A DNA stretch of 64,000 nucleotides from Lentisphaerota bacterium (GTDB lineage Bacteria; Verrucomicrobiota; Kiritimatiellia; CAIQIC01; JAGNIJ01). Location: NCBI GenBank assembly GCA_052033915.1, contig JBPOJF010000013.1, positions 78,400 to 142,399 on the forward strand, written 5' to 3'. Both the position numbers and the translations under genes were made by a program. Position 1 is the first letter of the stretch. Every line of letters begins with the position of its first letter. This document shows positions 19,088 to 51,219 of the stretch, in pieces. Under the pieces are notes generated by a model, which worked only from the letters and a program-made list of their open reading frames with translations, ran no database searches and was not told where the DNA came from.

Positions 19088-19201
19088 GAATCGTCGGCTC
19101 CCAAAAAGCTAGTGAGGCTTTCGCCTCACTAGCATGGCAAGGCCTGCTGGATAATCAGCTGAAATCCGATCCGAGCCACCTTTCCCTGCGCGCGCCCGGA
19201 A

Positions 19202-29200: not shown

Positions 29201-30766
29201 CCCGGCTACCGCTCGAACCGCCACTTCGACGTACTGAACGAAAACCTCGTCTTCAAGTTCACGCAGGAGCGAATCAACGACTCGGGAGCGCTGAGGCAGG
29301 CGCTCGAGGACCGGCGCACGGCGTACAGCGGCGGCGCGATCCTGCTGAACCTGACCTCGCACGACGAGATCCTGCCCGGCAACGACACCTGGATGGTCGC
29401 GTCGCGCTACGGCGCCGTGTCCGCCGTCGACGGCATCCCGATGATCTTCTACGGGCAGGAGCAGGGAATTCAGAACTGGGCGGGCGCGGTGACGAAGAAC
29501 ACGGGCTTCAAGACGCCGCACGAGGAGAACTTCGGCAAATACATCCCGCACTTCAAGCAGTGGAACCAGCTCACGGTCTGGACCCACACGCCCGACTACG
29601 GCGGCACGGATCTCGCGCAGTGGTACGGGCGCGTGAACTGGGCGCGGCACAACAGCGCCGCGCTCCGGAGCCGGAACCGCTGGTTCCTCAGCAAGGTCGG
29701 CGGCGGCGACGAGTCGCGCATCCTCGCCGTGGCGAAGTACCAGACGCCCTACGCCTCGCCGCGCACGAGCGACGTCGTGCTCGCGTTTGCGCTCCTGCTC
29801 CGCAACGACGAGGACACGCACGTCGGCGCGAGCGCGACGTACGACCTCAAGCCCGTATGGAACCTGCTTGGCCTCAGCACGTCCAAGTACTACAAAGCCC
29901 GCAACCTCGTTTCGAGCAACGCGCTCGCCGCCTACGTCTGGACAAACGTCTCCGGATCAACGCTTTACAACAGCGGCCTTTGGGTTTCTCTGAACGCCGG
30001 CACCTCCGCCCTGCCCATCACGGCCGACGGCGAGCTCGTGCAGTTCCTGAAGATCGAAGAGGATAACTTGGCGCCGGTGATCCACCTGCCGGGCCCGCAT
30101 ATTCTGCCGGTTGGAGCATCGACAAACTTCCCCGTCACGGCCGCCGATCCTGACGGAACCATTGTTACACTCACGAATACGGCCGTTCTTCCGGATGCCG
30201 TATTTGTCAACGGGGTTTTTTCGTGGACAGCAACGCCGGCGTTCGAGAACACCGCCCATCCTGTCGCGTTTGTCGCCACGGATGATCAGGGGCTCTCCGC
30301 GACGAACAGCACGACGATCACCGTCCCGTTCGACTGGAACGGAAACGGGATCGGCGACGGCTGGGAATGGACCCACTTCCAGAACCTGACCAACGCCGCG
30401 GCAAACGACAACGACGGCGACGGCGCGGGCAACTACGACGAGTACATCGCGGGCACGCAGCCGACGAACATCGGATCGGTGTTCAAGGTCATCTCCGTCT
30501 CCAGCGCAGACGGAACCTCAAGCCGCAACATTACGGTCTCCACGGAACCGGAGCGGCACTACTCGATCTACTTCGGCGACAGCGGCATGAGCAACAACAT
30601 GACGTGGTCCCCATTCGGCAATACGAACCTGGGCGTCGGCTCGTGGCTGGAGACCAGCCCGACATCGACCACGCACACCTTCACGGACGACGAGAGCACG
30701 AACACCACATCCTCCGCGCCCGCCTCCGGGCACCGGTTTTACCGGTTTAAAGTGCATAACCCCTAG
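26270..30766 (+). CDS. Giant secreted multidomain alpha-amylase-family (GH13-like) glycoside hydrolase
   Basis: Signal peptide 'MNRFLSFFLMAVLCALAGSAPA'. GH13-like regions I-IV: 'DGVFNHTS', 'GIDGLRCDFGQG', 'FIFMAETLDG', 'LLNLTSHDE'. C-terminal Ig/cadherin-like module, Ca-binding Asp-rich loops 'DWNGNGIGDGWEW' and 'NDNDGDGAGNYDEY', then a ~100-aa tail ending 'GHRFYRFKVHNP'. N-terminal Trp-rich ~100 aa may be a CBM. Confidence 0.7.
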   Translation: MNRFLSFFLMAVLCALAGSAPAETYRGEMNSWGASWMAQDTDFGSVWKVSVTSGADDTTSEFKFDRFGDWAENWGAGSSATKNSTIGSLASGGGNLSFSALNAKHYSFTMNAGHTSYVVMETDSDPVSITRADVQLADPWAAGAPVTIQLSAAKSPQENIWIRYTTNSWASSRLTAAASGSSTNYSATITANAGSRVEYYALTSTMPSNQIAADPDLCTLRGNKSGTTNYSFRFGAGNAWHIPANAEPVGATMRNPQSPYSHNAVYIYNGNQFQGGGNAADQSGGTLYHRLSGAAGWTATNLSYDNQIDNNKYWKSAIPAGTYGKTNVVEYYLSVTYTDHNTTYIGTTNGGMSSVTYLAASNAQAHPFSFTMGGEPGTEAAYIWHNTNRVHVGSDAVQCWAKIGYAQGIGTNRWVDGAAIYYTTNGAEPSGANGIPGASSMVQMMSFDHMEEDPYADGDAMWWMGTLTNLPSADGSTIKYRIGAWKSGGVERFAEYGTTGQDNQTFVFSLFVPGAAGLTVNGVNADYTTTKFFIDEAAGETQYVTVVYTPEAGASNVQVFCNLNRRDLCDVDYTNALIAGDGYADGIRPPDGNLLTPADTGAYFTAFAMTGGPTTFYWTGAVSRCGAYRLTTRYQKNAASATNWNWYSSGGLRDHAIVVSPRKALEQTMYELNTLTVEATDNSEAGRSTFQDLLGAADGDTDGYDPFNLDYLNFLQVNCLWFQPIHPNAEERKDSYTPGSPYATKNYFAVSKYYGADMTEAGAMREFTNFVAKCDAYTGTVGTINVMLDGVFNHTSWDAVFGEGGTNFNYCTNVNDRIGWFKPGWYALWTDYGLPATYYHSAYSNDIATAPDRGDFGKWPDVAELYYGKYSALVRHNPDNNGDYLNEGDVYDFAGMTAANEMDLWRYIAYYTEFWLKKTGHAGTNSWVAAQDDRGIDGLRCDFGQGLPPQLWEYIINRTRRIKWNFIFMAETLDGGKPGYRSNRHFDVLNENLVFKFTQERINDSGALRQALEDRRTAYSGGAILLNLTSHDEILPGNDTWMVASRYGAVSAVDGIPMIFYGQEQGIQNWAGAVTKNTGFKTPHEENFGKYIPHFKQWNQLTVWTHTPDYGGTDLAQWYGRVNWARHNSAALRSRNRWFLSKVGGGDESRILAVAKYQTPYASPRTSDVVLAFALLLRNDEDTHVGASATYDLKPVWNLLGLSTSKYYKARNLVSSNALAAYVWTNVSGSTLYNSGLWVSLNAGTSALPITADGELVQFLKIEEDNLAPVIHLPGPHILPVGASTNFPVTAADPDGTIVTLTNTAVLPDAVFVNGVFSWTATPAFENTAHPVAFVATDDQGLSATNSTTITVPFDWNGNGIGDGWEWTHFQNLTNAAANDNDGDGAGNYDEYIAGTQPTNIGSVFKVISVSSADGTSSRNITVSTEPERHYSIYFGDSGMSNNMTWSPFGNTNLGVGSWLETSPTSTTHTFTDDESTNTTSSAPASGHRFYRFKVHNP

Positions 30767-31839: not shown

Positions 31840-32583
31840 TCAATGCGGGTGCGGATGTCGCAGGATGTGCGGCCGCTCCAGACCGTGGGCCCGCATCAGT
31901 TCCTCGTTGTCCAGCAATTCGGCGGTCGGCCCTTCCGCCATGATCTTTCCGCCGTCCATCACGATGACCCGCGGGCAGACTTCGACCACAAGCTCCAGAT
32001 CGTGCGTTGCAATGATCCGCGTATGCTCGAACGAGTGGAGCATCTCGATCAGCCTCCGGCGCCCGCGCGGGTCCAGGTTCGAGGACGGTTCATCCATGAC
32101 CAGGATGTCCGGCGACATCGCCAGCACGGTCGCGATCGACACCGCGCGCTTCTCGCCGGCGGAAAGCCTGTAGGGCGCGCGGTCCTTCACATGGCTCATG
32201 CCGACGCGCTCCAGCGCCGCGATCACCCTCTGCTGGACCTCGGCCTGTGGGAGGCCCGCATTAAGCGGCCCGAAGGCCACATCCTCGGCAACGGTGGGCA
32301 TGAACAACTGGTCGTCCGGATCCTGAAAAACCATGCCGACCGCGCGCCGGACCGTGGCCGTCGTCTCGGGCGTCAGCGGCGCGTCGCCGATGCGCACTTC
32401 GCCGCGGGTGGGCTTCAGGCAGCCGTTCAGGTGAAGCAGCAGGGTGGACTTCCCGGCGCCGTTCGCGCCGACCAGCGCGACCGCCTGCCCGCGCGCGATC
32501 CGGACCGAGACGCCTTTCAGCGCCTCCGTTCCATCGGGATACACGTGGCACAGGTCGCGCACTTCGACCATGGGATCGCTCAT
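31840..32583 (-). CDS. cbiO: ECF-type transporter ATPase (CbiO/EcfA), Ni/Co uptake
   Basis: Walker A 'GANGAGKST', signature 'LSAGEKRAVSIA', Walker B 'ILVMDEPSSNLD'. ATGA overlap with cbiQ. Confidence 0.8.
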   Translation of the reverse strand: MSDPMVEVRDLCHVYPDGTEALKGVSVRIARGQAVALVGANGAGKSTLLLHLNGCLKPTRGEVRIGDAPLTPETTATVRRAVGMVFQDPDDQLFMPTVAEDVAFGPLNAGLPQAEVQQRVIAALERVGMSHVKDRAPYRLSAGEKRAVSIATVLAMSPDILVMDEPSSNLDPRGRRRLIEMLHSFEHTRIIATHDLELVVEVCPRVIVMDGGKIMAEGPTAELLDNEELMRAHGLERPHILRHPHPH

Positions 32584-33386
32584 GACAGACCTCCCGTGAA
32601 CCAGCGGCCCAGCAGATCGGCAAGATTCCATGTCCGCGCCGCGGCGAAGAACACCGTCCACCCGAGCACGAACGCCGCATCCGCCCGACCTGCGGGTGTC
32701 GGGTCAAGGACGCGGATTTCCCCAGCGAAACCGCGCGACATCATCGCGCGATAGACGCGATCCGCGCGAGCCATCGAACGCAGAAGCAGGTGGCCCACGG
32801 CTGAGCCGTACACGCGCAGCGGGACGGCGGCCGAGCCGGCGGCGCGAATCTGCATGCCGCGCCGCATCCGCGAACCTTCAGCCGCGACGACGAACAGATA
32901 GCGGTAAAGGAACAACAGTTGGACGACGAACACGCGGGGCAGACCCATCCGCTCCAGCCCGGCGCATAAACGATTCATGCCCGTACACGCCACGAGAACG
33001 AGCGCCGCGCTCACCGTCAGGACGAAGCGGACGAGGATGGAGGCGAACGAGAACCAACCTCCGGTGACGACCCGCCCGCCGATGGCCGCGACAGGCTCGC
33101 GGTCCAGGAATGGATTGAACATCCCGATCACGACGGCGAACGGCGCAGCGATGAGAATCTTCCGGAGCAGATACCCTGACGGGATCCGCCCCAGCGACAT
33201 GAGCGCGAGGGGGTAGACAAAAAACGGCATCAACGCGGACACTTCGTAGCGCGGGAACGACATCACAAATACGATGAAGAGGAGGGTGGTGACCGCCTTG
33301 GCCCGCGCATCGAGCCGGTGCAAAGGCGTATCCAACCGGCCCAACTCATCCATACGGCCGATTTCGATCCATTCTCCAGGACTCAA
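32580..33386 (-). CDS. cbiQ: ECF transporter transmembrane (T) component CbiQ
   Basis: ~250 aa, 5-6 TM helices, 'LDARAKAVTTLLFIVFVM' and 'RRGMQIRAAG' (conserved R-rich cytoplasmic loop of EcfT/CbiQ). Confidence 0.75.
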   Translation of the reverse strand: MSPGEWIEIGRMDELGRLDTPLHRLDARAKAVTTLLFIVFVMSFPRYEVSALMPFFVYPLALMSLGRIPSGYLLRKILIAAPFAVVIGMFNPFLDREPVAAIGGRVVTGGWFSFASILVRFVLTVSAALVLVACTGMNRLCAGLERMGLPRVFVVQLLFLYRYLFVVAAEGSRMRRGMQIRAAGSAAVPLRVYGSAVGHLLLRSMARADRVYRAMMSRGFAGEIRVLDPTPAGRADAAFVLGWTVFFAAARTWNLADLLGRWFTGGLS

Positions 33387-33453
33387 GGGTTCCGCCTTGT
33401 TTCCGACAAGAATCCGCGCGGTTTCCGAGTCTCATCCATCGCTCGCCGACCGT

Positions 33454-34536
33454 CTATGACTCCCCAGAACCCATGATCACACTTTGCGAAGTGTGATCAT
33501 GCCTGTCCCTCGGCGCTTGACCCCGCTTCAACACCCAGCCGACCGCGCACGCCAACATCAGCGTGATCGCACCACCCACGAGTCCCGACACGGAAGTCCC
33601 CGCGCTCACCGCGGGCCAGGAGGCCGCCTGCTCCTCCGACTCGGCTGCCTCGGCGCTCGATTTGAATCCGTAGTCCGGCAGAAACGCCGTTTTCTCCTGC
33701 ACCGATGAGAGTTCCTTGTGCACTCCGCTCTCCGAACCAGAGACCTCCTCCGTTCCGATGACCTTCGCGATCGACCACTCCAGTCCGTCAGGATGCGTTG
33801 AGGCGAACCAACTGGCGACTCCGCCCACAACCACCGCGGCAATCAGCAGGCCGATCAGGACCGGCCGCAAGCTGACGCGCGTCCCCGCAGCCGCTTCCGC
33901 GGCCGGCAAAGCCTCCGGCCGCGCGCGGGCAACAAACGAGACGACAACCGCCGTGGCCAGGCCCTCGACAATTCCGATCGCCAGGTGAATGGGCGACATC
34001 AGCAGGACAAACACGCCGAACGGCAACGCCGTAATCCCGGATGCTTTGGTCTCGAGCACGACGCTGAACGCTCCGAGTTGGAGCCCCACGACCGCGGCAA
34101 CGATTGCCGCCACCCATGCGCGCGGCGTTCCGTGCTGATCCTTCGTGATCGCCCGGTAGACAAAGGGATACGCGACGAACGCGGGGTAAAACCCAAGGTT
34201 GAAGATATTGCAGCCCAGCGCCAGCAAACCGCCATCCGCGAAGAACAGCGCCTGCACCGTCAGCACCGAGGCAATCACCAGGAATGCCGCGTACGGCCCC
34301 AGCAGGATCGCCAGGATCAGCCCGCCGCCGAGATGGCCGCTCGAACCCGCGCCCGGAATCGTGAAGTTGATCATCTGCGCGGCGAAGATGAACGCGCCGA
34401 GCACGCCCATCATCGGAACCAGGTTATCGCGCATCGTCAGCCGCACTTTCCGCGCGCAATACGCGATCAACCCCGCGCTCGCGGCCCACATCGTCCCGCC
34501 CACGGCGGGGGAAATTAAAGCATCGGCCATGTGCAT
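33454..34536 (-). CDS. cbiMN: Fused CbiM-CbiN (NikMN-like) Ni/Co ECF substrate-capture component
   Basis: Starts 'MHMADALIS' (CbiM N-terminal MH motif that coordinates the metal), 7 TM CbiM core, C-terminal CbiN-like two-TM extension. The track ORF's first 114 aa are an artefact. Confidence 0.75.
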   Translation of the reverse strand: MHMADALISPAVGGTMWAASAGLIAYCARKVRLTMRDNLVPMMGVLGAFIFAAQMINFTIPGAGSSGHLGGGLILAILLGPYAAFLVIASVLTVQALFFADGGLLALGCNIFNLGFYPAFVAYPFVYRAITKDQHGTPRAWVAAIVAAVVGLQLGAFSVVLETKASGITALPFGVFVLLMSPIHLAIGIVEGLATAVVVSFVARARPEALPAAEAAAGTRVSLRPVLIGLLIAAVVVGGVASWFASTHPDGLEWSIAKVIGTEEVSGSESGVHKELSSVQEKTAFLPDYGFKSSAEAAESEEQAASWPAVSAGTSVSGLVGGAITLMLACAVGWVLKRGQAPRDRHDHTSQSVIMGSGES

Positions 34537-34538
34537 GT

Positions 34539-35318
34539 CTATTTCCCTCCAAACGTCCACTTCAGGCCGGCTGTCGCTGTGAAATCCGGCGCATCGCCCT
34601 CGATTTTCGATCCGCCCGCCACGTCGAGAACCAGATCCTCGACCACATCCCAGCGGAAGCCCGTGTTGTACTGCACCACAGTGTCCGCGCCGTCCGTCAG
34701 TTCCTTCTCGGCGAACACTTCGCCCACCCATTGCACGGCATCCGTCAACTGGTAGTCCAGCGCGACGCCGTAGTGAACCACATCGTGGACTTTTTCGTCG
34801 TCCGGCTCGCCGATCCACGAGTAGCCGGCGTTCACGTGAACGCCCGCCTTTTCCCCGAACGCCCGCGACGCCGCCCACATCAGGTCGTAGTCGGTCTCGC
34901 CGCTGCCCAGTCCTTTATCTTCGTCCGCCGTCGGAAACTTGACCGAGGGGACCAGCGCGTGCCGCGCGCCGAGTGGGCACTCCTCGAGGAACTGCCACTT
35001 GGCGTTGATCACGAGATCGCCGACCCCGCTTTCCCTGTGACGCTTCTTCGCACCGCTCTCAAGCGCCTCGTCTCGTTCCTCGAACTGTCCGCCGAAGCCT
35101 ACGCCCACGGCAAGGCCGGGCAGAACCCCGTACCCCAGCCCGACCGGGAAATCCCAATGGTCGCAATCCGAATCCCCGCCGTACACGGCCCCGGCCTCGA
35201 TCTCGAACCGGCCGGTATCCACCGGGTCCGCATCGTCAATCGTCAACGGCCTCGCGGCAAACGCCGCCCCCGCCGTCATCAGGCTCAGCGCCAAAATCGC
35301 CTCTTTGCAGATTCTCAT
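34539..35318 (-). CDS. Outer-membrane channel-like protein ('MetA-pathway/phenol-degradation-like' OM transporter family) inside the Ni uptake operon
   Basis: Signal peptide 'MRICKEAILALSLMTAGAAFA', amphipathic beta-strands, 'FEIEAGAVYGG...GLGYGVLPGLAVGVGFGGQF'. Confidence 0.5.
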   Translation of the reverse strand: MRICKEAILALSLMTAGAAFAARPLTIDDADPVDTGRFEIEAGAVYGGDSDCDHWDFPVGLGYGVLPGLAVGVGFGGQFEERDEALESGAKKRHRESGVGDLVINAKWQFLEECPLGARHALVPSVKFPTADEDKGLGSGETDYDLMWAASRAFGEKAGVHVNAGYSWIGEPDDEKVHDVVHYGVALDYQLTDAVQWVGEVFAEKELTDGADTVVQYNTGFRWDVVEDLVLDVAGGSKIEGDAPDFTATAGLKWTFGGK

Positions 35319-35320
35319 CT

Positions 35321-35758
35321 TCAGAACTCCTTTCCTGTTGTCGTGACCGTGAGTTTCCCGTGCTTCACTCCTTTGACAGCAATCAATCCGTCCGCCAGCT
35401 TCCGCACCGCCGGCGCCTTCCCGCGCACCGCCAGGACTTCCATGCAGTTGTGGTGGTCGAGGTGGATGTGAAGGACCGAGATGATCAGCCCCTCGTGGTC
35501 GTGCTGGATGTCGGTCAGCTTCGCCTGCAGGTCGCGCTTGTGATGGTCATAGACCAGCGTGATCGTGCCCGCGATCTCGCCCCCGCCCACCTCCGCCCAG
35601 TGCTCGACCAGCCGCGCACGGACCATGTCCGCCAGCGCCTGCGAGCGGTTGGCGTACCCCTTCTTCTTCGACATGGCGTCCAACTGACCCACCAGATCGC
35701 CGGCCATCGAGACGCTGAAACGAACTACCGGGTGTGCGTTCATGGTGTTACCTTTCAA
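35321..35758 (-). CDS. nikR: Nickel-responsive regulator NikR (RHH + ACT-like metal-binding domain)
   Basis: N-terminal ribbon-helix-helix 'VVRFSVSMAGDLVGQLDAM', C-terminal high-affinity Ni site 'HIHLDHHNC' (H-x-H ... H ... C). Confidence 0.8.
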   Translation of the reverse strand: MKGNTMNAHPVVRFSVSMAGDLVGQLDAMSKKKGYANRSQALADMVRARLVEHWAEVGGGEIAGTITLVYDHHKRDLQAKLTDIQHDHEGLIISVLHIHLDHHNCMEVLAVRGKAPAVRKLADGLIAVKGVKHGKLTVTTTGKEF

Positions 35759-35923
35759 GATTTTCGTAACCTTGCAACTCTTTAACCCGCTGTCAAGGCC
35801 GATGCAGGATACCGTATGCGCGCGCGGAGTTCGTCCTCATTTTCCGTATTCCGCGACATCTTCGTGGGACCACAGAGTCGCAAGGCGCAGGCCGCGCGTC
35901 TTCACCTCAAGACGAGATGATCA

Positions 35924-35954
35924 TTGACACAACAACCCACATCATCAATATATA
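35924..35954 (+). promoter_or_regulatory. Sigma70-like promoter (TTGACA - 17/19 nt - AATATA/TATATA) driving the riboswitch-nrdDG-dcd transcript
   Basis: Seen directly in an AT-rich patch ~50 nt upstream of the riboswitch. Confidence 0.35.
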
Positions 35955-35999
35955 GTGTAGTTCTTTAGATAGATCACAACAGATTGTAGGTTTGTGACG

Positions 36000-36292
36000 T
36001 GGACAAGTGCCCCCGCTCATGCGGGGGAGAATAGGGAATCGGGTGTGAATCCCGAGCGGTAGCGCCGCTGTGACGAGTGACGAACGCTTCATCAAGCCAC
36101 TGCTTCTTCGAGCGGTAAGGCGAAGCCAGTAGGAAGATCTCGAAGCCAGAAGACCTGCTTGTTCGCGCTCATCCGGTCCGGCGGCCTGAAGTCGCCGGCA
36201 ACTGTCTCGCCGAAGACAGGATGAGGGAAGAGACGAGCTTGACCCGTTGCCCGGCCCGCCTTCACTCCCTCGCGAGTGGTGGCGGTTTTTTC
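36000..36292 (+). promoter_or_regulatory. Cobalamin (B12) riboswitch with intrinsic-terminator expression platform
   Basis: Conserved blocks in the correct order: 'AGGGAA', 'GGTGTGAATCC', 'GCGGTAGCGCC', B12-box 'AAGCCACTGC', 'GCGGTAAGGCGAAGCC', 'CCAGAAGACCTGC'. Followed by the hairpin CCCGCCTTCACTCC...GAGTGGTGGCGG + TTTTTT at 36256..36292, 84 nt before the nrdD ATG. Confidence 0.7.
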
Positions 36293-36375
36293 TGTCCGTA
36301 CGCTGCGCGCGAGTGGTTTCCCTCAAGACGAACAAGCGGCTGGTTGCCGCAGAAACAGAGAGGAGACCGCTCGAC

Positions 36376-38541
36376 ATGCTTCACGAACGTTCCGACAGTT
36401 CGATCCCGCAGATTCAAAACACGCTGTCGCTGGCCGTCCGAAAACGGGATGGTCGCGTTGTGGCCTTCGACTCAGAGCGTATTCGACTCGCCATCGCCGC
36501 CGCCTTCAAGGCGGACCAAGGACTGACTCTCAACCAGCGCCTGCCAATCGACGCCGACACCGCCGTAGTTCAGATCACCGACGCGGTGGTGCAGTCTCTC
36601 GCCGCGCGATCCGCCAACGACGAGGCGCTGGAGATCGAGTCCATTCAAGACCTGGTCGAGAAACATCTCATGCAGTCGGGCCATCACCGCGTGGCCAAGC
36701 GCTACATCCTCTACCGGGAAGAGCGGCGAAAAGCGCGCTTCGCGCGCGACCTGGGCGAACCGCTGGTCGCCACGGTCACATCGATCGACGAGTACCTGAG
36801 CGCGGCCGACTGGCGGGTCAACGCCAACGCGAACCAAGGCTACTCCCTGGGCGGGTTGATCCTCAACATCTCGGGAAAAGTCACCGCCAATTACTGGTTG
36901 AATCACCTCTACGGCGGAGACATCGAACGCGCGCATCGGGACGGCGATTTCCATATCCACGACCTCGACATGCTGGCCGGCTACTGCGCCGGCTGGTCCC
37001 TGCGCCGGCTCCTGTTGGAAGGGCTCAACGGTGTGCCCAACAAGATCGAAGCGGCGCCGCCGAAGCACCTGAGAACCGCGCTGGGGCAGATGGTCAATTT
37101 CCTTGGAACCCTTCAGAACGAATGGGCCGGGGCGCAAGCGTTCAGTTCGGTGGACACCTATCTGGCGCCGTTCGTTCGCCGGGACGGGCTGACCTACGCC
37201 GAGGTGCGGCAGTGCTTCCAGGAGTTCGTCTACAACCTGAACGTCCCGTCGCGATGGGGAACGCAGACGCCGTTCACCAATCTGACTTTTGACTGGATGT
37301 GCCCCGCCGATCTGCGCGAGCAGCAGCCCGTCATTGCGGGCGAGTTGATGCCTTTCCTCTACGGCGACCTGCAGAAGGAGATGGACGACATCAATCGCGC
37401 GTTCCTCGAAGTGATGAACGCGGGCGACACCAAGGGCCGCATTTTCACCTTCCCGATTCCCACGTACAACATGACGGAGGATTTCGATTGGGAACATCCG
37501 AATACGGACCTTCTTTTTGAGATCACCGCGAAGTACGGCCTTCCGTATTTCCAGAACTTCGTCAACTCGGAGCTGAAACCGGGCATGGTGCGCTCCATGT
37601 GCTGCCGCCTGCAACTGGATCTGCGCGAACTCCTGAAGCGCGGCAATGGTCTTTTCGGCTCCGCCGAGCAGACCGGTTCGGTCGGCGTGGTCACGGTGAA
37701 CTGCGCCCGGCTGGGGTACCGGTTCAAGGGCGATTCGCAGGGACTGTTCGCCGAGTTGGATCGGCTGCTGGAACTGGCCAAGCGAAGCCTGGAGGTCAAG
37801 CGGCAAGTCATTGAGGAACGCATGAAGTCCGGTTTGTATCCGTTCACGCGCCGTTACCTCGGCACGCTTCGTAATCACTTCAGCACAATCGGAGTGAACG
37901 GCCTGAACGAATGCGTCCGCAATTTCACCGGCGATCGGGACGACATCTCCACACCGGAGGGGATCGCGCTCAGCCTCCGCATTCTGGACCACATCCGCGG
38001 CCGGCTGATCGGATACCAGCAGGAGACGGGACACCTCTACAACCTCGAAGCGACGCCGGCCGAGGGCGCGACCTATCGCTTTGCGCGGGAAGATCGCAAA
38101 CGCTTCCCCCGGATTCTCCAGGCGGGCGCCGAAGAGGCCCCGTACTACACGAACTCCTCCCAGTTGCCGGTCGGCCACACCGATGATCCGTTCTTCGCGC
38201 TGCAGCATCAGGAAGCGCTCCAACAGCGCTACACCGGCGGAACCGTCTTCCACCTCTACATGGGCGAACGGATCTCCAGCGCGCGCGCCTGCAAGGAGCT
38301 GGTTCGTCGCGCGATCACCCGGTTCCGCATTCCCTATATCACGGTGACCCCGACCTTCTCGATCTGCCCGCAGCATGGCTACCTGACCGGGGAACACGCC
38401 TTCTGCCCGAAATGCACCGATCACAAACAAGCCTGCGAAGTCTGGACGCGCGTGATGGGCTACTACCGTCCGGTCTCGCAATTCAACAGGGGCAAGCAGA
38501 GCGAATTCAAAGAGCGCCTGTTCTTTGCCGAGGCACCCTGA
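36376..38541 (+). CDS. nrdD: Anaerobic ribonucleoside-triphosphate reductase (class III RNR)
   Basis: 721 aa. C-terminal Zn-ribbon 'CPQHGY...CPKC' and glycyl-radical motif 'RVMGYYRPV'. Start is the internal M with an AGGAGA RBS. Confidence 0.85.
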   Translation: MLHERSDSSIPQIQNTLSLAVRKRDGRVVAFDSERIRLAIAAAFKADQGLTLNQRLPIDADTAVVQITDAVVQSLAARSANDEALEIESIQDLVEKHLMQSGHHRVAKRYILYREERRKARFARDLGEPLVATVTSIDEYLSAADWRVNANANQGYSLGGLILNISGKVTANYWLNHLYGGDIERAHRDGDFHIHDLDMLAGYCAGWSLRRLLLEGLNGVPNKIEAAPPKHLRTALGQMVNFLGTLQNEWAGAQAFSSVDTYLAPFVRRDGLTYAEVRQCFQEFVYNLNVPSRWGTQTPFTNLTFDWMCPADLREQQPVIAGELMPFLYGDLQKEMDDINRAFLEVMNAGDTKGRIFTFPIPTYNMTEDFDWEHPNTDLLFEITAKYGLPYFQNFVNSELKPGMVRSMCCRLQLDLRELLKRGNGLFGSAEQTGSVGVVTVNCARLGYRFKGDSQGLFAELDRLLELAKRSLEVKRQVIEERMKSGLYPFTRRYLGTLRNHFSTIGVNGLNECVRNFTGDRDDISTPEGIALSLRILDHIRGRLIGYQQETGHLYNLEATPAEGATYRFAREDRKRFPRILQAGAEEAPYYTNSSQLPVGHTDDPFFALQHQEALQQRYTGGTVFHLYMGERISSARACKELVRRAITRFRIPYITVTPTFSICPQHGYLTGEHAFCPKCTDHKQACEVWTRVMGYYRPVSQFNRGKQSEFKERLFFAEAP

Positions 38542-39197
38542 TGGCACATCGCCTCTCCATCTCGGCGCAATCGGCGGCGGACGCCGGCGACGTGATCCCG
38601 GTTGCCGGTGTTGTGCCTCTGACCACCCTGGATTTCCCCGAACGGCTCGCAACCGTGGTGTTCACGCAAGGCTGTCCCTGGCGCTGTGCGTACTGCCATA
38701 ACGCGCACCTGCGTGCTCTCAATCAACCCGGCCGATGGCGCTGGCAGGATGTCTGCGCGCGGCTCGACGAGCGGCGCGATTTCGTCGAAGCCGTCGTTTT
38801 CAGCGGGGGCGAACCCACGTTCCACCGTGGATTGGAAATCGCCATCCGGACGGTCCGACGGAAGAGGTTCCTCGTCGGACTCCACACGGCGGGAATCTTC
38901 CCCGAGCGTCTTCGCGCTCTGTTGCCATTGCTGGATTGGGTGGGCTTCGACGTCAAAGCCCCCCTCGATCATCACTATGCGCGGCTCACCGGTGACGCCC
39001 GGAGCGCCGTCAAGGTCAAAGCCAGTTTGAAGATGCTGATGGCATCGGGCATCGCGTTCCAACTGCGCACCACCGTTGCCGATGGCGCGGAGGGCGACCG
39101 GTGGTTTGAAGCCGTTCGGGGACATCTGATTCGTTTCGGCGCGGGCGAGCCGGTCCGGCAATCCGTGCGCGAAGCGGCCCGGGAGGGCGCGGCGTGA
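38541..39197 (+). CDS. nrdG: Anaerobic RNR activating protein (radical SAM)
   Basis: 'GCPWRCAYCHN' CxxxCxxC radical-SAM cluster motif. ATG overlaps the nrdD stop (TGATG). Confidence 0.8.
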   Translation: MAHRLSISAQSAADAGDVIPVAGVVPLTTLDFPERLATVVFTQGCPWRCAYCHNAHLRALNQPGRWRWQDVCARLDERRDFVEAVVFSGGEPTFHRGLEIAIRTVRRKRFLVGLHTAGIFPERLRALLPLLDWVGFDVKAPLDHHYARLTGDARSAVKVKASLKMLMASGIAFQLRTTVADGAEGDRWFEAVRGHLIRFGAGEPVRQSVREAAREGAA

Positions 39198-39775
39198 TTC
39201 TCAACGACCATCAGATCGCGCGCCTTGCCCGCCGTGGCATGATTCGTCCCTTTAGCGCCCAGCTTGTGCGCCGGCTCGATGGCCGGCCCATTCTGTCCTA
39301 CGGACTGTGCAGCTTCGGATATGACCTCCGCCTATCGCCCAAGGAATTTAAAGTCTTCCGCCATGTGCCGGGCAAAATTGTAAATCCAAAAGACTTCTCG
39401 CCGGCCAGCCTGGAGTTGACCAAGTTGCATCGCGACGACTACGGCAGCTTCTTCATCCTCCCCGGCCAAAGCTACGGGCTCGGGGTCGCCATCGAACGCC
39501 TGCATCTGCCCGAGAACGTCAGCGCGATCTGCTTGGGAAAGAGCACCTATGCCCGCTGCGGCATTATCGCCAACGTCACGCCGGCGGAAGCCGGGTGGCA
39601 GGGACATCTCACCCTGGAATTCTCCAACAGCAGTGCGGCGGATTGCCGCATCTATGCCGGCGAAGGCATTGTGCAAATGATTTTTCTACAGGGCGAACGA
39701 TGCAGGACCAGCTACTGCGCGCGGGAAGGAAAGTATCACCGGCAAGGCAATCACATCACCTTTCCGCGCGTATAG
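39194..39775 (+). CDS. dcd: dCTP deaminase
   Basis: 'MILNDHQI', 'GYDLRL', 'SYGLGV...LHLPENVSAICLGKSTYARCGI' dUTPase-fold motifs. GTG start overlapping the nrdG stop. Confidence 0.85.
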   Translation: MILNDHQIARLARRGMIRPFSAQLVRRLDGRPILSYGLCSFGYDLRLSPKEFKVFRHVPGKIVNPKDFSPASLELTKLHRDDYGSFFILPGQSYGLGVAIERLHLPENVSAICLGKSTYARCGIIANVTPAEAGWQGHLTLEFSNSSAADCRIYAGEGIVQMIFLQGERCRTSYCAREGKYHRQGNHITFPRV

Positions 39776-40018
39776 ATGAAGGCTTTGAATGACACCGTTT
39801 TTCCAGGATGACAGGAAAGGCCGTGAAAGCCGGCCACAGTCTCGCTGCGGTAACGAGCTACAACTCTCCATCCGTCTTGCACCCTGTTTGGCGCACGCGG
39901 AGCAAAGCCAATCGACGATCCCAATCGGCGGTGAAGGCGAGAGACGAGGCGAAATGTCACAGGCTCGGAGTCCGAACATCTGTCTTCCTGGCGCAAGAAG
40001 AAAAGGCCCATCGCCAGA

Positions 40019-42349
40019 ATGGAGACCATGGTGAAGAAACATATCCTGACACACAACCTCGGATATCCCCGCATAGGGGCGAAGCGCGAGTTGAAACGCG
40101 CCCTCGAATCCTATTGGAAGAAGACCCGCACGGAGACGCAACTCTTCGACACGGCAAAAGCCATTCGAAGAGCCAACTGGCTTTTTCAGAAACAGGCCGG
40201 GATCGATCTAATTCCGTCCAATGATTTCAGTCTCTATGATCAGATGCTCGACACCTGCGCGCTAGTCGGGGCAGTGCCGGAGCGGTTCCGGCAGGAGGCT
40301 GGCCCAGTCTCCCTGTCGACGTATTTCGCCATGGCGCGAGGGATCGATGGCGCGGGCGATCAAGCGTGTGATTCGAACCCTGCTTCGCCCTGCGCGCCCC
40401 TGGAAATGACCAAGTGGTTTGACACGAACTATCACTATCTCGTGCCGGAGTTGAGCCACGATCAACGCTTCCAGCTTGCATCGAGCAAGGTGTTCGATGA
40501 ATTCGCAGAAGCGCTAGATATGGGCATCCGCACCATGCCGGTACTTATCGGTCCGGTCACCTTCCTTTTGCTGGCCAAGACGCGCGGACCGCATTTCAAG
40601 CGGCTGTCAATCCTTCCGCACCTGCTCCCTGTCTACGCCAAAGTCCTGCGGCGCCTTTGCGATCAAGGGGCGGAGTGGGTACAGATGGACGAGCCGTGTC
40701 TCTGTCTCGACCTTGCCGAGGAGGATCTCGCCGGGATCACGACGGCCTATGAACAACTGAACCGAGCCGCTTCCGGATTGAAGATAATGGTGGCAACCTA
40801 CTTCGGGGACTTGCAGCACAACCTTGAGACAGCTTGCCGGCTGCCGGTGTCCTGCATCCATTTCGACGCGGTGCGAGCGCCTCACGAACTGGATCGGCTG
40901 CTCGAGTTGCTGCCGCCGACGATGCGATTGTCGCTTGGGGTTGTAGACGGCCGCAATGTCTGGCGAAATGACTTTGAACACTCACTGGCGCTACTGCGGA
41001 AGGCCATAGCCTCCATCGGCGAGGAACGCCTCTTGGTCGCGCCGTCATGCTCGCTGATTCATGCGCCGCTCAGCTTGAAGCAGGAAAGCAAGCTGGATGT
41101 GGAAATCAAGAGTTGGCTTTCATTCGCGGAGGAGAAGATCACCGAGGTCGTTCAACTTGCGCACCTCGCACGACAGAAGAAGGCTTCCTCCCGGTTATCC
41201 GGGAACCGCGAGGCCGTCACGCTTCGACTCAATAGCCCGCGCATTCACGATCCTGCCGTCAAGATGCGGACCGACGGCATATCTCCGGCTGCCCTGCAGA
41301 GACACAGCGCCTTCGCCATCCGGAAACCGAAACAGCAGGCGCGACTGAAGTTGCCGTCTTTTCCGACAACGACCATCGGTTCGTTTCCACAAACAGAGGT
41401 AGTCCGGACAGCCCGCGCCGATTTCAAGAAGGGGATTCTGTCACAGCAAGCGTACGAAGGGTTCCTCGAACAAAAGCTCGCCGAGTGTGTTCTGTGGCAG
41501 GAAGAGATTGGCCTTGACGTGTTAGTGCATGGCGAATTCGAACGGACCGACATGGTTGAGTATTTCGGGGAACAGCTTGCGGGTGTCGCATTGACGGAGA
41601 ACGGCTGGGTGCAAAGCTACGGTTCTCGTTGCGTGAAGCCGCCCATCCTATTCGGCGATGTCTCCCGTCCGAGGCCGATGACAGTCCGGTGGTCAAAATA
41701 CGCGCAGTCGTTGACGAAGAAACCTCTGAAAGGAATGCTGACCGGTCCACTTACGATCCTGCAATGGAGTTTCGTTCGCGACGACCAGCCGCGCAGCGAA
41801 ACCGCCAAACAGATTGCGCTTGCTCTGAGAGACGAGGTTCTCGACTTGGAGGCGGCCGGACTCCCGATCATTCAGATCGACGAGCCGGCTCTGCGCGAAG
41901 GACTGCCGCTTCGGCGCGCGGATTGGCGAAGCTATCTGGACTGGGCCGTCGACGCTTTCCGACTTGTGGCCGGCGGCGTCCAGGATGAGACGCAGATCCA
42001 CACCCATATGTGTTATTGTGAATTTGACGACGTCCTCGGCAGCATCGCTGCGCTCGACGCAGATGTGATCTCCATCGAAACATCGCGCTCCAACATGCAG
42101 TTGCTTGAAGCCTTCACAAGGTTCGATTATCCGAACGATATCGGGCCGGGCGTCTGGGACATTCACTCGCCACGCGTCCCATCCGTAGATGAAATGCTGG
42201 GCCTTATTCGTGCCGCCGCGAAGGTGATTCCAAGCGAGCGTCTATGGATCAATCCTGACTGCGGTTTGAAGACACGTCAATGGAACGAGGTGAAGGTGGC
42301 GTTGCAGAATCTCGTCGCCGCGGCGCAGAAGGCGAGAGCGGCAGTGTGA
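40019..42349 (+). CDS. metE: Cobalamin-independent methionine synthase
   Basis: 776 aa, '[20 protein letters not shown]' N-terminus, C-terminal Zn site 'HTHMCYCEF' and 'DCGLKTR'. Confidence 0.9.
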
Positions 42350-49588: not shown

Positions 49589-50389
49589 ATGGACCACAAC
49601 ATCACATCCGGCCATGCCGGCGCGTGCTGCACGCGGATCGAAGACCTCGGCGTCCGCATCGGCAACTCGATCATCCTCGAGAACGTCGATCTCCATCTTC
49701 ATTGCGGACAGCTCATCGCGCTGATCGGTCCGAACGGCGCGGGCAAGACAACGCTCCTGCGCGCGATGCTGGGCGAACTGCCGCACTCCGGCAAACTGCA
49801 TTTCCTCCCGGTTCGCAAGACGGGCGGGGGACCCTCGCCGAGAATCGGCTACGTGCCCCAGAAGATCGAGATGGATCTCCTCGCGCCGATCACCGTGCGC
49901 GATCTATTCGCCGGCGCCGTCTCGCGCCGGCCGATCTGGCTGGGCTGCCGCCGGAAGAGCCTGAAAGGGTCCCTCGACATGCTGTCCGTCGTCGGCGCGG
50001 ACGAACTCCTCGAGAAGAAGCTGGGTCAGCTCTCCGGCGGACAACTCCAGCGCGTCCTCCTCGCGCTCGCGCTAACCCCTGTTCCGGACATTCTTCTCCT
50101 CGACGAGCCGGTCGCCGGCGTGGATCAGGCGGGCATCGAGATGTTCTACACGATGGTGTCTCAGTTCCGCCGCTCGTTCGACCTCGCCATCCTCCTGATC
50201 TCGCACGACCTGCCCGCCATCGCGCGCTTCGCGGATCGGATGGTCTTCCTGAACCGGCGAATCCTGGCCGACGGCACGCCGGCCGAGGTTCTGTCCAACC
50301 CGCGGGTCATTCAGACGTTCGGCTACGATTTCTCCGCCGCCGCCGGCCCGCCCGCCGCCGCGCCCGTCCACCATGGAGGCGCATCGTGA
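49589..50389 (+). CDS. znuC: Zinc ABC transporter ATP-binding protein
   Basis: Walker A 'GPNGAGKTT', signature 'LSGGQLQRVLLALAL', Walker B 'ILLLDEPVAGVD'. Confidence 0.8.
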   Translation: MDHNITSGHAGACCTRIEDLGVRIGNSIILENVDLHLHCGQLIALIGPNGAGKTTLLRAMLGELPHSGKLHFLPVRKTGGGPSPRIGYVPQKIEMDLLAPITVRDLFAGAVSRRPIWLGCRRKSLKGSLDMLSVVGADELLEKKLGQLSGGQLQRVLLALALTPVPDILLLDEPVAGVDQAGIEMFYTMVSQFRRSFDLAILLISHDLPAIARFADRMVFLNRRILADGTPAEVLSNPRVIQTFGYDFSAAAGPPAAAPVHHGGAS

Positions 50390-51219
50390 ACGCGTGGCAC
50401 GCCTGGATCGCGCAACTGCCGTTCGAGTGGGCGCAGTACGCGTTCATGCACAACGCCCTGCTGGCCCTCATCCTGCTCTCGCCGCTCTTCGCCCTGATCG
50501 GCTGCATGGTGATCAACAACCAGATGGCGTTCTTCTCCGAGGCCATCGGCCATGCCGCGCTGACCGGCATCGCGATCGGCGTCGTGGCCGGGATCGCCAA
50601 TCCGCTCTGGAGCATGATTCCCGTCGCCGTCCTCCTGGCCTTCGCCATCACCCTGCTGCGCCATTACAGCGCGGCGTCGGCCGACACGATCATCGGCCTC
50701 GTCATGGCGTTCGCCGTCGCGCTCGGCGTGGTGCTCCTTTCGCGCGGCGGGGGGTTCGCGAAGTATTCCCGCTACCTCATCGGCGATATCCTGACTATCG
50801 CCCCCGGCGAAATCGCCGGCGCCGCGATCCTGCTCGCCGGGATCGCCGGCATCTGGCTCGTCTTCTTCAACCGGATCGCGCTGACATTCCTGAACCGCCC
50901 GCTCGCGAGGAGCCGCGGCATCAACGTGTGGATGGTCGAAGGGCTGTTTGCGGCGGCCGTGGCGCTCGTCGTCACCGTCAGCATTCCGTGGATCGGCCTG
51001 CTGGTGATCAATTCCCTGCTGATCCTCCCGGCCGCCGCGGCCCGGAACCTGGCCCGCAACACGGCGCAGTACCACGCGATCGCGATCGCCGTCAGCCTCC
51101 TCTCCGGAATCCTCGGCCTGATCGGGTCGTACTACTGGAACACCGCCTCCGGCGCCACCGTGGTGCTCGTCGCCATGGGCTTCTTCATCCTGTCGCTCGC
51201 CGGCCGCATCGCGCGGTAG
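50386..51219 (+). CDS. znuB: Zinc ABC transporter permease (ABC-3)
   Basis: GTG start overlapping the znuC stop. 8 TM helices, 'AFFSEAIGHAALTGIAIG' ABC-3 motif. Lies inside the long track ORF 49624..51219. Confidence 0.75.
   Translation: MNAWHAWIAQLPFEWAQYAFMHNALLALILLSPLFALIGCMVINNQMAFFSEAIGHAALTGIAIGVVAGIANPLWSMIPVAVLLAFAITLLRHYSAASADTIIGLVMAFAVALGVVLLSRGGGFAKYSRYLIGDILTIAPGEIAGAAILLAGIAGIWLVFFNRIALTFLNRPLARSRGINVWMVEGLFAAAVALVVTVSIPWIGLLVINSLLILPAAAARNLARNTAQYHAIAIAVSLLSGILGLIGSYYWNTASGATVVLVAMGFFILSLAGRIAR

What the first reader, a model, noticed from the sequence alone, without database searches (positions are those of the whole stretch)
35924..39775. Cobalamin riboswitch with terminator platform controlling a nrdD-nrdG-dcd operon
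All conserved B12-aptamer blocks including the B12 box are present at 36000-36200. They are followed by a GC-rich hairpin and T6 at 36256-36292, which is the OFF-state terminator. The regulated genes are the class III anaerobic RNR, its activase and dCTP deaminase, chained by overlapping start and stop codons. B12 repression of an anaerobic RNR implies the genome also encodes a B12-dependent class II RNR (nrdJ) used when cobalamin is available. Inclusion of dcd in the same B12-controlled transcript is uncommon.
Basis: partly seen in the sequence, partly recalled or inferred. Interest (0 to 1): 0.6.

Follow-up and report, generated by a model that had tools for sequence, protein, structure and literature searches.

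The report
B12 riboswitch gating anaerobic ribonucleotide reductase
A vitamin-B12-sensing RNA switch with a transcription terminator sits in front of the genes for the B12-independent anaerobic ribonucleotide reductase, its activase and dCTP deaminase in an uncultured Verrucomicrobiota-like bacterium; it is real and well conserved, but this kind of control has been known since 2003-2004, so it is an ordinary find with a few small extras.

Summary
Rfam RF00174 matches 35988-36176 at 117 bits against a gathering score of 31.5. nrdD (36376-38541), nrdG (38541-39197) and dcd (39194-39775) follow, joined by overlapping stop and start codons.

Across 10 distinct related leaders, both the terminator conformer and a mutually exclusive antiterminator conformer keep their pairing, with compensatory changes. 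This is therefore a working two-state OFF switch.

- A second RF00174 aptamer (39773-40001) sits directly after dcd and in front of metE.
- Two NrdR-box-like sites, 31 bp apart, overlap the promoter.
- A conserved hairpin occludes the nrdD ribosome-binding region.

The logic of B12 repressing the B12-independent isozyme is published for nrdDG in Desulfovibrio, Desulfuromonas and Propionibacterium acnes. Having dcd in the unit is confined to one Verrucomicrobiota clade: 10 of 80 nrdD loci, and 8 of 8 metagenome loci that carry nrdD-nrdG-dcd.

The inferred nrdJ could not be tested.

Verdict: a new member of a known kind, of low-to-moderate interest.

The parts
35924..35954 (+). Probable sigma-70-type promoter: -35 TTGACA at 35924-35929, and an A/T-rich -10 (ATATAT/TATATA) at about 35948-35954.
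   Evidence: TTGACA is invariant in 7 related leaders, with TATAnn 17-19 nt downstream. The consensus scan did not call it because the -10 and the spacing are off consensus. The transcription start is inferred to lie near 35958-35962.
35943..35958 (+). NrdR-box-like site 1, CATCAATATATAGTGT, overlapping the -10.
   Evidence: It matches ACACWATATATWGTGT at 13 of 16 positions. It is the only hit in the 64 kb window at 3 or fewer mismatches, where 0.05 are expected.
35974..35989 (+). NrdR-box-like site 2, TCACAACAGATTGTAG, 31 bp from site 1. It is also a 5' palindrome or hairpin just before P1.
   Evidence: It matches at 11 of 16 positions. The equivalent palindrome scores 12-13 of 16 in relatives at 32-33 bp spacing. 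Riboswitch-less nrdD loci L004 and L016 carry two boxes 32 bp apart. Leaders of metE riboswitches score only 8-11, although they have a hairpin at the same place.
35960..35967 (+). Leader motif GTTCTTTA (GTTCTTTG in relatives) at the probable 5' end of the transcript.
   Evidence: GTTCTTTG lies 3-29 nt upstream of 10 cobalamin riboswitches of this clade, whatever the downstream gene. Its function is unknown.
35988..36176 (+). Cobalamin (AdoCbl-type, with P6 extension) riboswitch aptamer, including the B12 box AGCCAGAAGACCUGC.
   Evidence: RF00174 at 117.1 bits over the full-length model. Orthologous aptamers score 103-116 bits upstream of nrdD in L001-3, L009 and L010. The custom model finds more.
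36168..36225 (+). Three-way junction 3' of P1. It consists of closing helix CUCAUCC (36168-74) : GGAUGAG (36219-25), hairpin H1 (36176-36199), and hairpin H2 (36203-36218) with the conserved loop CGCC(G)A. H2 is the probable P13/L13 partner of L5.
   Evidence: H1 and H2 each carry 4-5 pairs with compensatory changes. The closing helix is nearly invariant. The module recurs behind clade riboswitches of other genes. The kissing-loop assignment is an inference.
36223..36271 (+). Antiterminator (ON conformer). GAGGGAAGAGACGAGC (36223-38) pairs with GCCCGCCUUCACUCCCUC (36254-71). In addition, CGCUC (36166-70) pairs with GAGUG (36274-78).
   Evidence: RNAalifold on 13 leaders selects this conformer. 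93.3% of cells are paired, against 52% or less in slid controls, and 0 of 500 shuffles reach this. In L003 and L086 the strands read GAGGAAAAC: GUUUUCCUC. It forms in transcripts cut before the 3' arm of the terminator.
36256..36291 (+). Intrinsic terminator (OFF conformer): an 11-bp interrupted GC-rich stem, a 6-nt loop and U6.
   Evidence: It is conserved with compensatory changes.
36310..36373 (+). Long hairpin that pairs the Shine-Dalgarno region (GGAG 36362-65) up to 2 nt before the nrdD ATG. It encloses a small conserved GC hairpin (36336-36350).
   Evidence: Folds. Four pairs carry compensatory changes across relatives. Whether B12 controls it is unresolved.
36376..38541 (+). nrdD, the class III (anaerobic) ribonucleoside-triphosphate reductase, with an N-terminal ATP-cone.
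   Evidence: NF006126 at 1115 bits; PF13597 and PF03477. The C-terminal glycyl-radical motif RVMGY and the Cys cluster CPKC...C were read from the sequence.
38541..39197 (+). nrdG, the radical-SAM activase. The ATG shares one base with the nrdD TGA. An alternative in-frame ATG lies at 38412.
   Evidence: TIGR02495 (NrdG2) at 178 bits. The short form keeps the whole domain. Sequence.
39194..39775 (+). dcd, dCTP deaminase. Its GTG start overlaps the nrdG TGA.
   Evidence: TIGR02274 at 116.5 bits; PF22769. Sequence.
39773..40001 (+). Second cobalamin aptamer. It begins at the dcd stop codon and has no terminator-like hairpin.
   Evidence: RF00174 at 35.7 bits, just above the gathering score of 31.5. 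No + strand terminator lies between dcd and metE.
40019..42349 (+). metE, the B12-independent methionine synthase, immediately downstream of the second aptamer.
   Evidence: NF003556 at 1131 bits; TIGR01371 at 1084 bits.

Best explanation
This is an adenosylcobalamin-type riboswitch that represses a nrdD-nrdG-dcd operon by premature intrinsic termination. When B12 is available, the cell stops making the B12-independent class III ribonucleotide reductase, its activase and the dCTP deaminase that processes the reductase's dCTP product.

Shown:
- The aptamer, the terminator and the three genes.
- Two mutually exclusive, conserved conformers of the 3' platform.

Inferred mechanism:
- Ligand binding closes P1 and, through an L5-L13-type contact with hairpin H2, stabilises the three-way junction.
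- The junction's closing helix, CUCAUCC:GGAUGAG, locks up the 5' end of the antiterminator strand.
- The terminator (36256-36291) then forms, and transcription stops about 85 nt before the nrdD ATG.
- Without B12, GAGGGAAGAGACG pairs with the 5' arm of the terminator and CGCUC pairs with its 3' arm, so the polymerase reads through.

Two NrdR-box-like sites over the promoter probably add repression at initiation that depends on the dNTP pool.

The transcript probably continues into a second cobalamin aptamer that gates metE. The whole block would then be a cluster of B12-independent isozymes that is silenced when B12-dependent NrdJ and MetH can work. The presence of NrdJ and MetH is inferred, not shown.
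For: Aptamer and genes:
- RF00174 at 117 bits.
- Gene identities.
- Codon overlaps.
- Terminator fold.

Structure conservation:
- OFF structure on 13 leaders (10 distinct): 85.7% paired against 49% or less in slid controls, 16 pairs with compensatory changes, 0 of 500 shuffles.
- ON structure: 93.3% paired against 52% or less, 0 of 500 shuffles. RNAalifold chose it on its own.

Recurrence:
- A riboswitch lies upstream of nrdD in the window, L001-3, L005, L009, L010, L013, L027 and L043, and in other phyla in L024, L036, L050, L059 and L078.
- It is present in 8 of 8 metagenome nrdD-nrdG-dcd loci with enough upstream sequence.

Other regulatory elements:
- NrdR boxes.
- Second aptamer and metE.
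- In L005, metE follows dcd with no intervening riboswitch. In L006-8 a riboswitch-metE unit lies upstream on the same strand, with only about 20 nt before nrdD.

Cobamide use and published precedent:
- A B12-dependent QueG gene is in the window.
- Published precedent for the logic: PMC545781 and PMC3848588.
- NrdJ plus NrdDG in Akkermansia: PMC7733943.
Against: - nrdJ and metH were not found in the window and could not be searched for in the genome.
- The window's own proteins have no exact match in the assembly index.
- Thermodynamic folding always favours the terminator, even without the aptamer. The ON state therefore has to be reached kinetically, which is usual for such switches but is not shown here.
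- Most compensatory changes in the terminator and antiterminator come from one diverged lineage (L003/L086).
- The L5-L13 contact rests on an invariant 3-bp GCG:CGC core and cannot be tested by covariation.
- NrdR-box site 2 coincides with a hairpin that metE riboswitches also carry, so it may be an RNA element rather than a protein site.
- No experiment supports ligand binding or termination.
Confidence: 0.85

Rival explanations
1. Control is at two levels. Besides termination, the conserved hairpin 36310-36373 blocks translation initiation of nrdD in transcripts that escape the terminator. The same purine-rich switch strand, GAGGGAA (36223-29), opens it in the absence of B12 by pairing with UUUCCCUC (36317-24).
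For: - The hairpin covaries.
- In most relatives CCCUC is conserved although it is unpaired in the hairpin.
- The switch strand is 8-nt complementary to it (88.8% paired).
- A similar arrangement precedes another riboswitch-controlled gene in L007.
Against: - The pairing is no better than shuffled controls (69 of 500).
- In L003 and L086 only 4 bp remain.
- The hairpin forms in every predicted state, so it may be constitutive, serving mRNA stability or setting the translation rate.
Confidence: 0.3
2. The riboswitch is real, but the genome has no nrdJ. B12 would then repress nrdDG-dcd for another reason, for example because a class I enzyme takes over, or because B12 serves as an environmental cue.
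For: - No nrdJ lies in the window or in any of the 113 loci held.
- No second ATP-cone protein was found in them.
- The inference was never tested here.
Against: - Published comparative genomics finds nrdJ wherever nrdDG carries a B12 element (PMC545781; P. acnes, PMC3848588).
- Nearly all Akkermansia strains have NrdJ.
- metE, the other classic B12-independent isozyme, is co-clustered and has its own aptamer.
Confidence: 0.1
3. The switch acts mainly on translation or through Rho, and the hairpin with its U-run is incidental.
For: - The terminator scan did not call it.
- About 85 nt and a ribosome-site hairpin lie between it and the ATG.
Against: - An 11-bp GC-rich stem directly followed by U6.
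- It is conserved with compensatory changes.
- A conserved antiterminator pairs with both of its arms.
- The same terminator design follows the metE riboswitches of L006-8.
Confidence: 0.05
4. The region is a chance or decayed match, or it encodes the 156-aa minus-strand ORF 35907-36377.
For: An ORF of that size exists.
Against: - 117 bits, E 1e-28.
- Structural covariation across relatives.
- The ORF matches no Pfam family. Such antisense ORFs are common in this G+C-rich window.
Confidence: 0.01

Closest known systems
B12-element (cobalamin riboswitch) upstream of nrdDG in Desulfovibrio vulgaris and Desulfuromonas (Rodionov et al. 2004, PMC545781, and the 2003 study it cites)
   Same: A cobalamin aptamer lies in the 5' leader of the B12-independent class III RNR operon. 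The proposed logic is that B12 switches off the B12-independent isozyme in favour of NrdJ.
   Different: The phylum differs (Verrucomicrobiota-like). The operon carries dcd as a third gene. metE with a second aptamer is attached. nrdJ is not demonstrated here.
Propionibacterium acnes nrdDG 5' UTR with a cobalamin riboswitch and a pair of nrd-boxes (PMC3848588)
   Same: A cobalamin riboswitch and NrdR boxes occur together at one nrdDG operon.
   Different: In P. acnes the boxes lie far downstream of the active promoter. Here they overlap the -10 and the first transcribed bases, upstream of the aptamer. The P. acnes operon has no dcd.
Streptomyces coelicolor nrdABS B12 riboswitch (Borovok et al. 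2006; from my own knowledge, not read here)
   Same: B12 represses a B12-independent RNR while NrdJ takes over. NrdR also regulates the nrd genes.
   Different: The regulated enzyme is class Ia, not class III.
Class I AdoCbl riboswitches with an L5-L13 kissing loop and a terminator platform (structural work of Johnson et al. 2012 and Peselis & Serganov 2012; from my own knowledge)
   Same: A four-way-junction core, the B12 box, a P6 extension, and a regulatory hairpin 3' of P1 whose loop can contact L5.
   Different: Here the regulatory hairpin sits in a three-way junction with an extra hairpin (H1). The junction's closing helix, rather than the loop itself, sequesters the antiterminator. The kissing contact is not demonstrated.
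metE cobalamin riboswitches (the classic B12-independent methionine synthase case; logic cited in PMC545781)
   Same: The second aptamer at 39773-40001 sits directly before metE.
   Different: It lies inside an operon-like block, starts at the stop codon of dcd, has no obvious promoter of its own, and scores only just above the Rfam threshold.

Membership tests
Cobalamin riboswitch (Rfam RF00174) | Covariance-model score at or above the curated gathering score, over the full model. | tested here: met
   117.1 bits against 31.5, model positions 1-189 of 189.
Cobalamin riboswitch (Rfam RF00174) | B12 box and conserved core blocks (GGGAA, GGUG..AAUCC, GCCACUG, AGCCAG-AGACCUGC). | tested here: met
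   All are visible in the cmscan alignment and are invariant across 14 clade aptamers.
Cobalamin riboswitch (Rfam RF00174) | Location in the 5' leader, on the same strand, of a gene linked to B12 metabolism. | tested here: met
   The aptamer ends 200 nt upstream of nrdD, a published target class.
Cobalamin riboswitch (Rfam RF00174) | Binds a cobalamin and changes conformation. | not testable with these tools
   This needs in-line probing or ITC with AdoCbl, MeCbl or HyCbl.
Terminator/antiterminator expression platform | GC-rich hairpin directly followed by a U-run, upstream of the start codon. | tested here: met
   Hairpin at 36256-36285 plus U6 at 36286-36291, about -17 kcal/mol.
Terminator/antiterminator expression platform | A mutually exclusive alternative pairing that uses the terminator arms, conserved in relatives. 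| tested here: met
   Antiterminator 93.3% paired against 52% or less in slid controls. Terminator-state structure 85.7% paired against 49% or less.
Terminator/antiterminator expression platform | Ligand-dependent termination. | not testable with these tools
   This needs single-round transcription assays or Term-seq with and without B12.
Class III ribonucleotide reductase system (NrdD/NrdG) | NrdD equivalog model above its cut-off, a C-terminal glycyl-radical motif, and an adjacent radical-SAM activase. | tested here: met
   NF006126 at 1115 bits (cut-off 548). RVMGY was read at 38449-38463. NrdG matches TIGR02495 at 178 bits (cut-off 131).
dCTP deaminase (Dcd) | Equivalog model above its cut-off. 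| tested here: met
   TIGR02274 at 116.5 bits (cut-off 92.8). Whether the enzyme is monofunctional or a bifunctional deaminase-dUTPase was not examined.
NrdR operator (tandem nrd-boxes) | Two 16-bp palindromes resembling acaCwAtATaTwGtgt, about 31-32 bp apart, at an nrd promoter. | tested here: met
   13 of 16 and 11 of 16 matches, 31 bp apart. The spacing is 32-33 bp in relatives. Riboswitch-less nrdD loci L004 and L016 show the same pattern.
NrdR operator (tandem nrd-boxes) | An nrdR gene in the genome, and NrdR binding. | not testable with these tools
   No other ATP-cone protein occurs in the window or the loci.
B12-dependent / B12-independent isozyme-switch regulon | The genome also encodes the B12-dependent counterpart (NrdJ; MetH for metE). 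| not testable with these tools
   Neither is in the window. Indirect support comes from QueG in the window and from the literature.

The most novel reading that the evidence does not exclude
In this Verrucomicrobiota clade, B12 would switch a whole route of deoxynucleotide supply rather than one enzyme. A single transcript gated twice by cobalamin aptamers would carry the NTP-reducing class III RNR, its activase, the dCTP deaminase that turns the RNR's dCTP product into the dTTP precursor, and metE. It would be layered under NrdR. The nrdD message would also be checked a second time, at translation, by a hairpin that the antiterminator strand itself opens. If so, dcd would be dispensable when NrdJ runs. 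That predicts an NDP-reducing NrdJ and a different dUMP source in B12-replete cells.
Probability: 0.25. Interest if true: 0.45.

Novelty: new member of a known kind. Interest (0 to 1): 0.25.

Why it matters
The finding adds a clean, well-conserved example from Verrucomicrobiota, a phylum little studied for riboswitches, to the established rule that cobalamin riboswitches silence B12-independent isozymes. Both conformers of the expression platform can be read directly from comparative data, so it would make a convenient model for termination-type cobalamin switches.

The co-regulated dcd and the attached metE aptamer suggest that B12 availability rewires dNTP, dTTP and methionine synthesis together in these bacteria. 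This is relevant to cobamide cross-feeding in gut and soil communities. None of it overturns current understanding.

Tried and rejected
- **Terminator scan.** It found no + strand terminator. I rejected this as a false negative, because the stem has one internal mismatch and the tool requires an uninterrupted stem next to the T-run.
- **Exact-sequence look-ups of NrdD and MetE.** Neither is on record, so the source organism could not be named. The best relatives are 72-79% identical Verrucomicrobiota MAGs.
- **Search for nrdJ.** All ORFs of at least 480 aa in the window were annotated and none is an RNR. tblastn with the NrdD ATP-cone against all loci found only NrdD itself.
- **MFE folding of the leader.** It never produced the antiterminator. 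The antiterminator appears only in transcripts truncated before the 3' arm and in the alignment-based fold. The ON state must therefore be reached kinetically.
- **Pairing of the switch strand with UUUCCCUC in the ribosome-site hairpin.** It was no better than shuffles, so I kept it only as a hypothesis.
- **L5-L13 kissing loop.** Only an invariant GCG:CGC core is shared. Sister riboswitches allow a 5-bp UUGCG:CGCAA pairing. Covariation could not be tested.
- **Partner for the conserved leader motif GUUCUUUGA.** I considered the CUCAUCAAG segment, the B12 box and H2. No consistent covariation was seen by eye, so I did not pursue it.
- **Literature search for dcd under a riboswitch with nrdD.** No paper in the held library contains all three terms.
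- **Universality of the dcd-nrdDG link.** It is not universal. L088 has a 79%-identical dcd with no nrdDG nearby.

Full report

Yes. A cmscan of the whole window against Rfam 15 gives two matches above gathering score, and both are RF00174. The first covers 35988-36176 on the + strand at 117.1 bits (gathering score 31.5, E 1e-28) and spans the model end to end.

Downstream lies the hairpin CCGCC-U-UCACUC[CCUCGC]GAGUGG-U-GGCGG at 36256-36285, followed by TTTTTT at 36286-36291 (about -17 kcal/mol). The simple terminator scan missed it because the stem has one internal mismatch.

The open reading frames that follow are:
- nrdD, 36376-38541: NF006126 at 1115 bits, ATP-cone plus NRDD domains. The glycyl-radical motif RVMGY is legible.
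- nrdG: TIGR02495 at 178 bits.
- dcd, 39194-39775: TIGR02274 at 116.5 bits.

The nrdD TGA shares a base with an nrdG ATG at 38541. The nrdG TGA overlaps the dcd GTG.

**2. Surroundings**

Upstream, and divergently transcribed, are nikR, a porin-like gene and a CbiM/N-Q-O-type ECF transporter (31840-35758). This is most simply a NikR-controlled nickel uptake unit, unrelated to the switch.

Downstream, the second RF00174 match (39773-40001, 35.7 bits) begins at the dcd stop codon. It ends 18 nt before metE (40019-42349; NF003556 at 1131 bits). No + strand terminator-like site separates dcd from it, and I saw no convincing promoter by eye. metE is therefore probably reached by read-through from the nrd promoter and gated a second time.

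No class II RNR is encoded in the window. A B12-dependent epoxyqueuosine reductase gene (QueG, 58013-59386, minus strand) is present, so the organism does use cobamides.

**3. Relatives**

The closest NrdD sequences (72-79% identity) are in Verrucomicrobiota MAGs. The window's own proteins are not in the assembly index.

Among 80 nrdD loci, nrdG almost always follows nrdD. dcd follows nrdG only in one Verrucomicrobiota clade: L001-3, L005-10 and L018.

Cobalamin aptamers lie directly upstream of nrdD in L001, L002, L003, L009 and L010 (103-116 bits). With a model built from clade aptamers, they are also found:
- in L013, L005, L027 and L043;
- in other phyla, in L024, L036, L050, L059 and L078.

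A metagenome scan with Dcd found eight further loci with nrdD-nrdG-dcd and enough upstream sequence. All eight carry the aptamer. One close dcd (L088, 79% identity) is unlinked.

The link to metE recurs in other arrangements:
- In L005, metE follows dcd without a second aptamer.
- In L006-8, a riboswitch-metE unit is followed on the same strand by two ThrE-family genes and then, after about 20 nt, by nrdD-nrdG-dcd.

**4. How it works**

The 3' platform is strongly conserved. Immediately after P1 comes a three-way junction with three parts:
- a closing helix, CUCAUCC (36168-74) : GGAUGAG (36219-25);
- a variable hairpin H1 (36176-99);
- a hairpin H2 (36203-18) whose stem covaries and whose loop, CGCC(G)A, is conserved.

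The same module follows clade riboswitches of metE and of other genes. I take H2 to be the P13/L13 equivalent that contacts L5 (GGUAGCGCC). In sister riboswitches L5 UUGCG and the loop CGCAA are 5-bp complementary. In the nrdD group only GCG:CGC is contiguous, and covariation cannot decide the matter.

On 13 leaders (10 distinct), the terminator-state structure comprises the junction, H1, H2, the terminator and the ribosome-site hairpin. It is 85.7% paired against 49% or less when partners are slid. Sixteen pairs carry compensatory changes, and 0 of 500 shuffles reach it.

RNAalifold on the same alignment instead returns a competing conformer. In it, GAGGGAAGAGACGAGC (36223-38) pairs with the 5' arm of the terminator (36254-71), and CGCUC (36166-70, the outer 3' strand of P1) pairs with GAGUG (36274-78) of the 3' arm. 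That structure is 93.3% paired against 52% or less, with 0 of 500 shuffles reaching it. In the diverged L003/L086 lineage both strands changed together (GAGGAAAAC: GUUUUCCUC).

The antiterminator also appears when the window's transcript is folded without the 3' arm of the terminator. Full-length MFE folds always keep the terminator. The decision must therefore be kinetic, as is usual for such switches.

The inferred sequence of events is as follows. With B12, P1 and the junction helix form, the first bases of the antiterminator strand are locked, and the terminator forms. Without B12, both terminator arms are captured and the polymerase continues.

**5. Additional layers**

*NrdR boxes.* CATCAATATATAGTGT (35943-58) matches the NrdR-box consensus at 13 of 16 positions. 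It is the only such site in the window, where 0.05 are expected. TCACAACAGATTGTAG (35974-89) lies 31 bp downstream. Relatives keep both sites at 32-33 bp spacing. Riboswitch-less nrdD loci (L004, L016) have two clear boxes 32 bp apart. Site 2 coincides with a 5' hairpin that metE riboswitches also possess, with an unrelated sequence, so its role as a protein site is probable rather than certain.

*Ribosome-site hairpin.* A long hairpin (36310-24: 36358-73) pairs the Shine-Dalgarno region and ends 2 nt before the ATG. It covaries. The antiterminator strand is complementary to its UUUCCCUC segment, which would make a second, translational checkpoint. However, that pairing is no better than shuffled controls.

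*Leader motif.* All clade riboswitch leaders begin with a conserved GUUCUUUG motif whose function is unknown.

**6. Comparison with what is known**

B12 elements in front of nrdDG, in genomes that also have nrdJ, were described for Desulfovibrio vulgaris and Desulfuromonas. The explicit proposal was that B12 represses the B12-independent isozyme (PMC545781, citing an earlier 2003 survey). Propionibacterium acnes has a cobalamin riboswitch and nrd-boxes at nrdDG (PMC3848588). Akkermansia muciniphila, a verrucomicrobium, has both NrdJ and NrdDG (PMC7733943).

The present locus passes every membership test that could be run for RF00174, for a terminator/antiterminator platform, for NrdD/NrdG, for Dcd and for tandem nrd-boxes. 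Ligand binding, termination in vitro, and the presence of nrdJ, metH and nrdR could not be tested.

**7. Why dcd?**

This part is inference. Class III RNRs reduce nucleoside triphosphates, whereas class II enzymes reduce either di- or triphosphates (PMC8365446, abstract). dCTP, the direct NrdD product, is the Dcd substrate on the way to dUMP and dTTP. Co-expression with NrdD is therefore sensible, and co-repression by B12 suggests that the route is not needed when NrdJ is active.

I found no paper in the held library that mentions dCTP deaminase, nrdD and a riboswitch together.

**8. Verdict**

This is a genuine, functional-looking cobalamin OFF switch of the termination type, controlling nrdD-nrdG-dcd. 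The regulatory idea is well known.

The new points are modest:
- the phylum;
- the dcd passenger;
- the serial second aptamer for metE;
- the NrdR boxes upstream of the aptamer;
- a platform whose two conformers are both visible in comparative data.

It is a new member of a known kind. Interest: 0.25.

Noticed in passing
window 39773-40001 (+), with metE at 40019-42349: A second RF00174 cobalamin aptamer (35.7 bits, just above threshold) starts at the dcd stop codon and ends 18 nt before metE. It has no terminator and no obvious promoter of its own. An L5-like GUCUC is complementary to GAGAC at 40022-26, next to the start codons, which hints at translational control.
   Followed up: partly
window 35943-35958 and 35974-35989: Two NrdR-box-like palindromes, 31 bp apart, overlap the nrdD promoter and the first transcribed bases. 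They are conserved in relatives, and riboswitch-less nrdD loci (L004, L016) have them too.
   Followed up: partly
window 35960-35967; L001 5596, L002 5602 and 11285, L003 5600, L005 3234, L006 1163, L007 1175/12219/12109(-), L008 1169: The motif GTTCTTTG (GTTCTTTA in the window) lies 3-29 nt upstream of cobalamin riboswitches of this clade, whatever the regulated gene. It probably marks the 5' end of the transcripts. Its function is unknown: it could be an initial transcribed sequence or an unmodelled 5' extension of the riboswitch.
   Followed up: partly
window 36310-36373: A covarying hairpin occludes the nrdD Shine-Dalgarno and start region downstream of the terminator. Its conserved but unpaired CCCUC is complementary to the antiterminator strand.
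   Followed up: partly
window 31840-35758 (-): A divergent cluster of nikR, a porin-like gene (Phenol_MetA_deg family), a fused CbiM-CbiN-like gene, cbiQ and cbiO. It is probably a NikR-controlled nickel ECF importer rather than a cobalt one.
   Followed up: no
window 58013-59386 (-): An epoxyqueuosine reductase gene (QueG; DUF1730 plus 4Fe-4S domains). The enzyme is cobamide-dependent, which shows the organism uses B12.
   Followed up: no
L002 8335-9771 and L081 (same arrangement): A 478-aa ORF with only a faint nitronate-monooxygenase-like match is inserted between nrdD and nrdG. A further cobalamin riboswitch follows dcd (L002 11288-11471), in front of small ORFs with no family match.
   Followed up: no
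L005 3233-9195; L006-L008 1190-9450: There are alternative arrangements of the same gene set. In L005 a single riboswitch precedes nrdD-nrdG-dcd-metE. In L006-8 the order is riboswitch-metE-ORF-thrE-thrE-nrdD-nrdG-dcd, with only about 20 nt before nrdD.
   Followed up: partly
L001 1564-5419: A cobalamin riboswitch precedes a 716-aa protein with no Pfam match, a protein with a prepilin-type N-terminal methylation motif, and a DUF6580 protein. This may be an uncharacterised B12-related, possibly uptake, operon in Verrucomicrobiota.
   Followed up: no
window 26270-30766 (+) and 50373-52748 (+): A 1498-aa ORF has only a short alpha-amylase catalytic-domain match. A 791-aa ORF carries a D12-class adenine methyltransferase domain in its C-terminal half.
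   Followed up: no
window 1-19100: A large exopolysaccharide or O-antigen-type cluster: Wzz/tyrosine-kinase, two Wzy_C ligase-like proteins, a flippase, a glycosyltransferase and DUF362.
   Followed up: no
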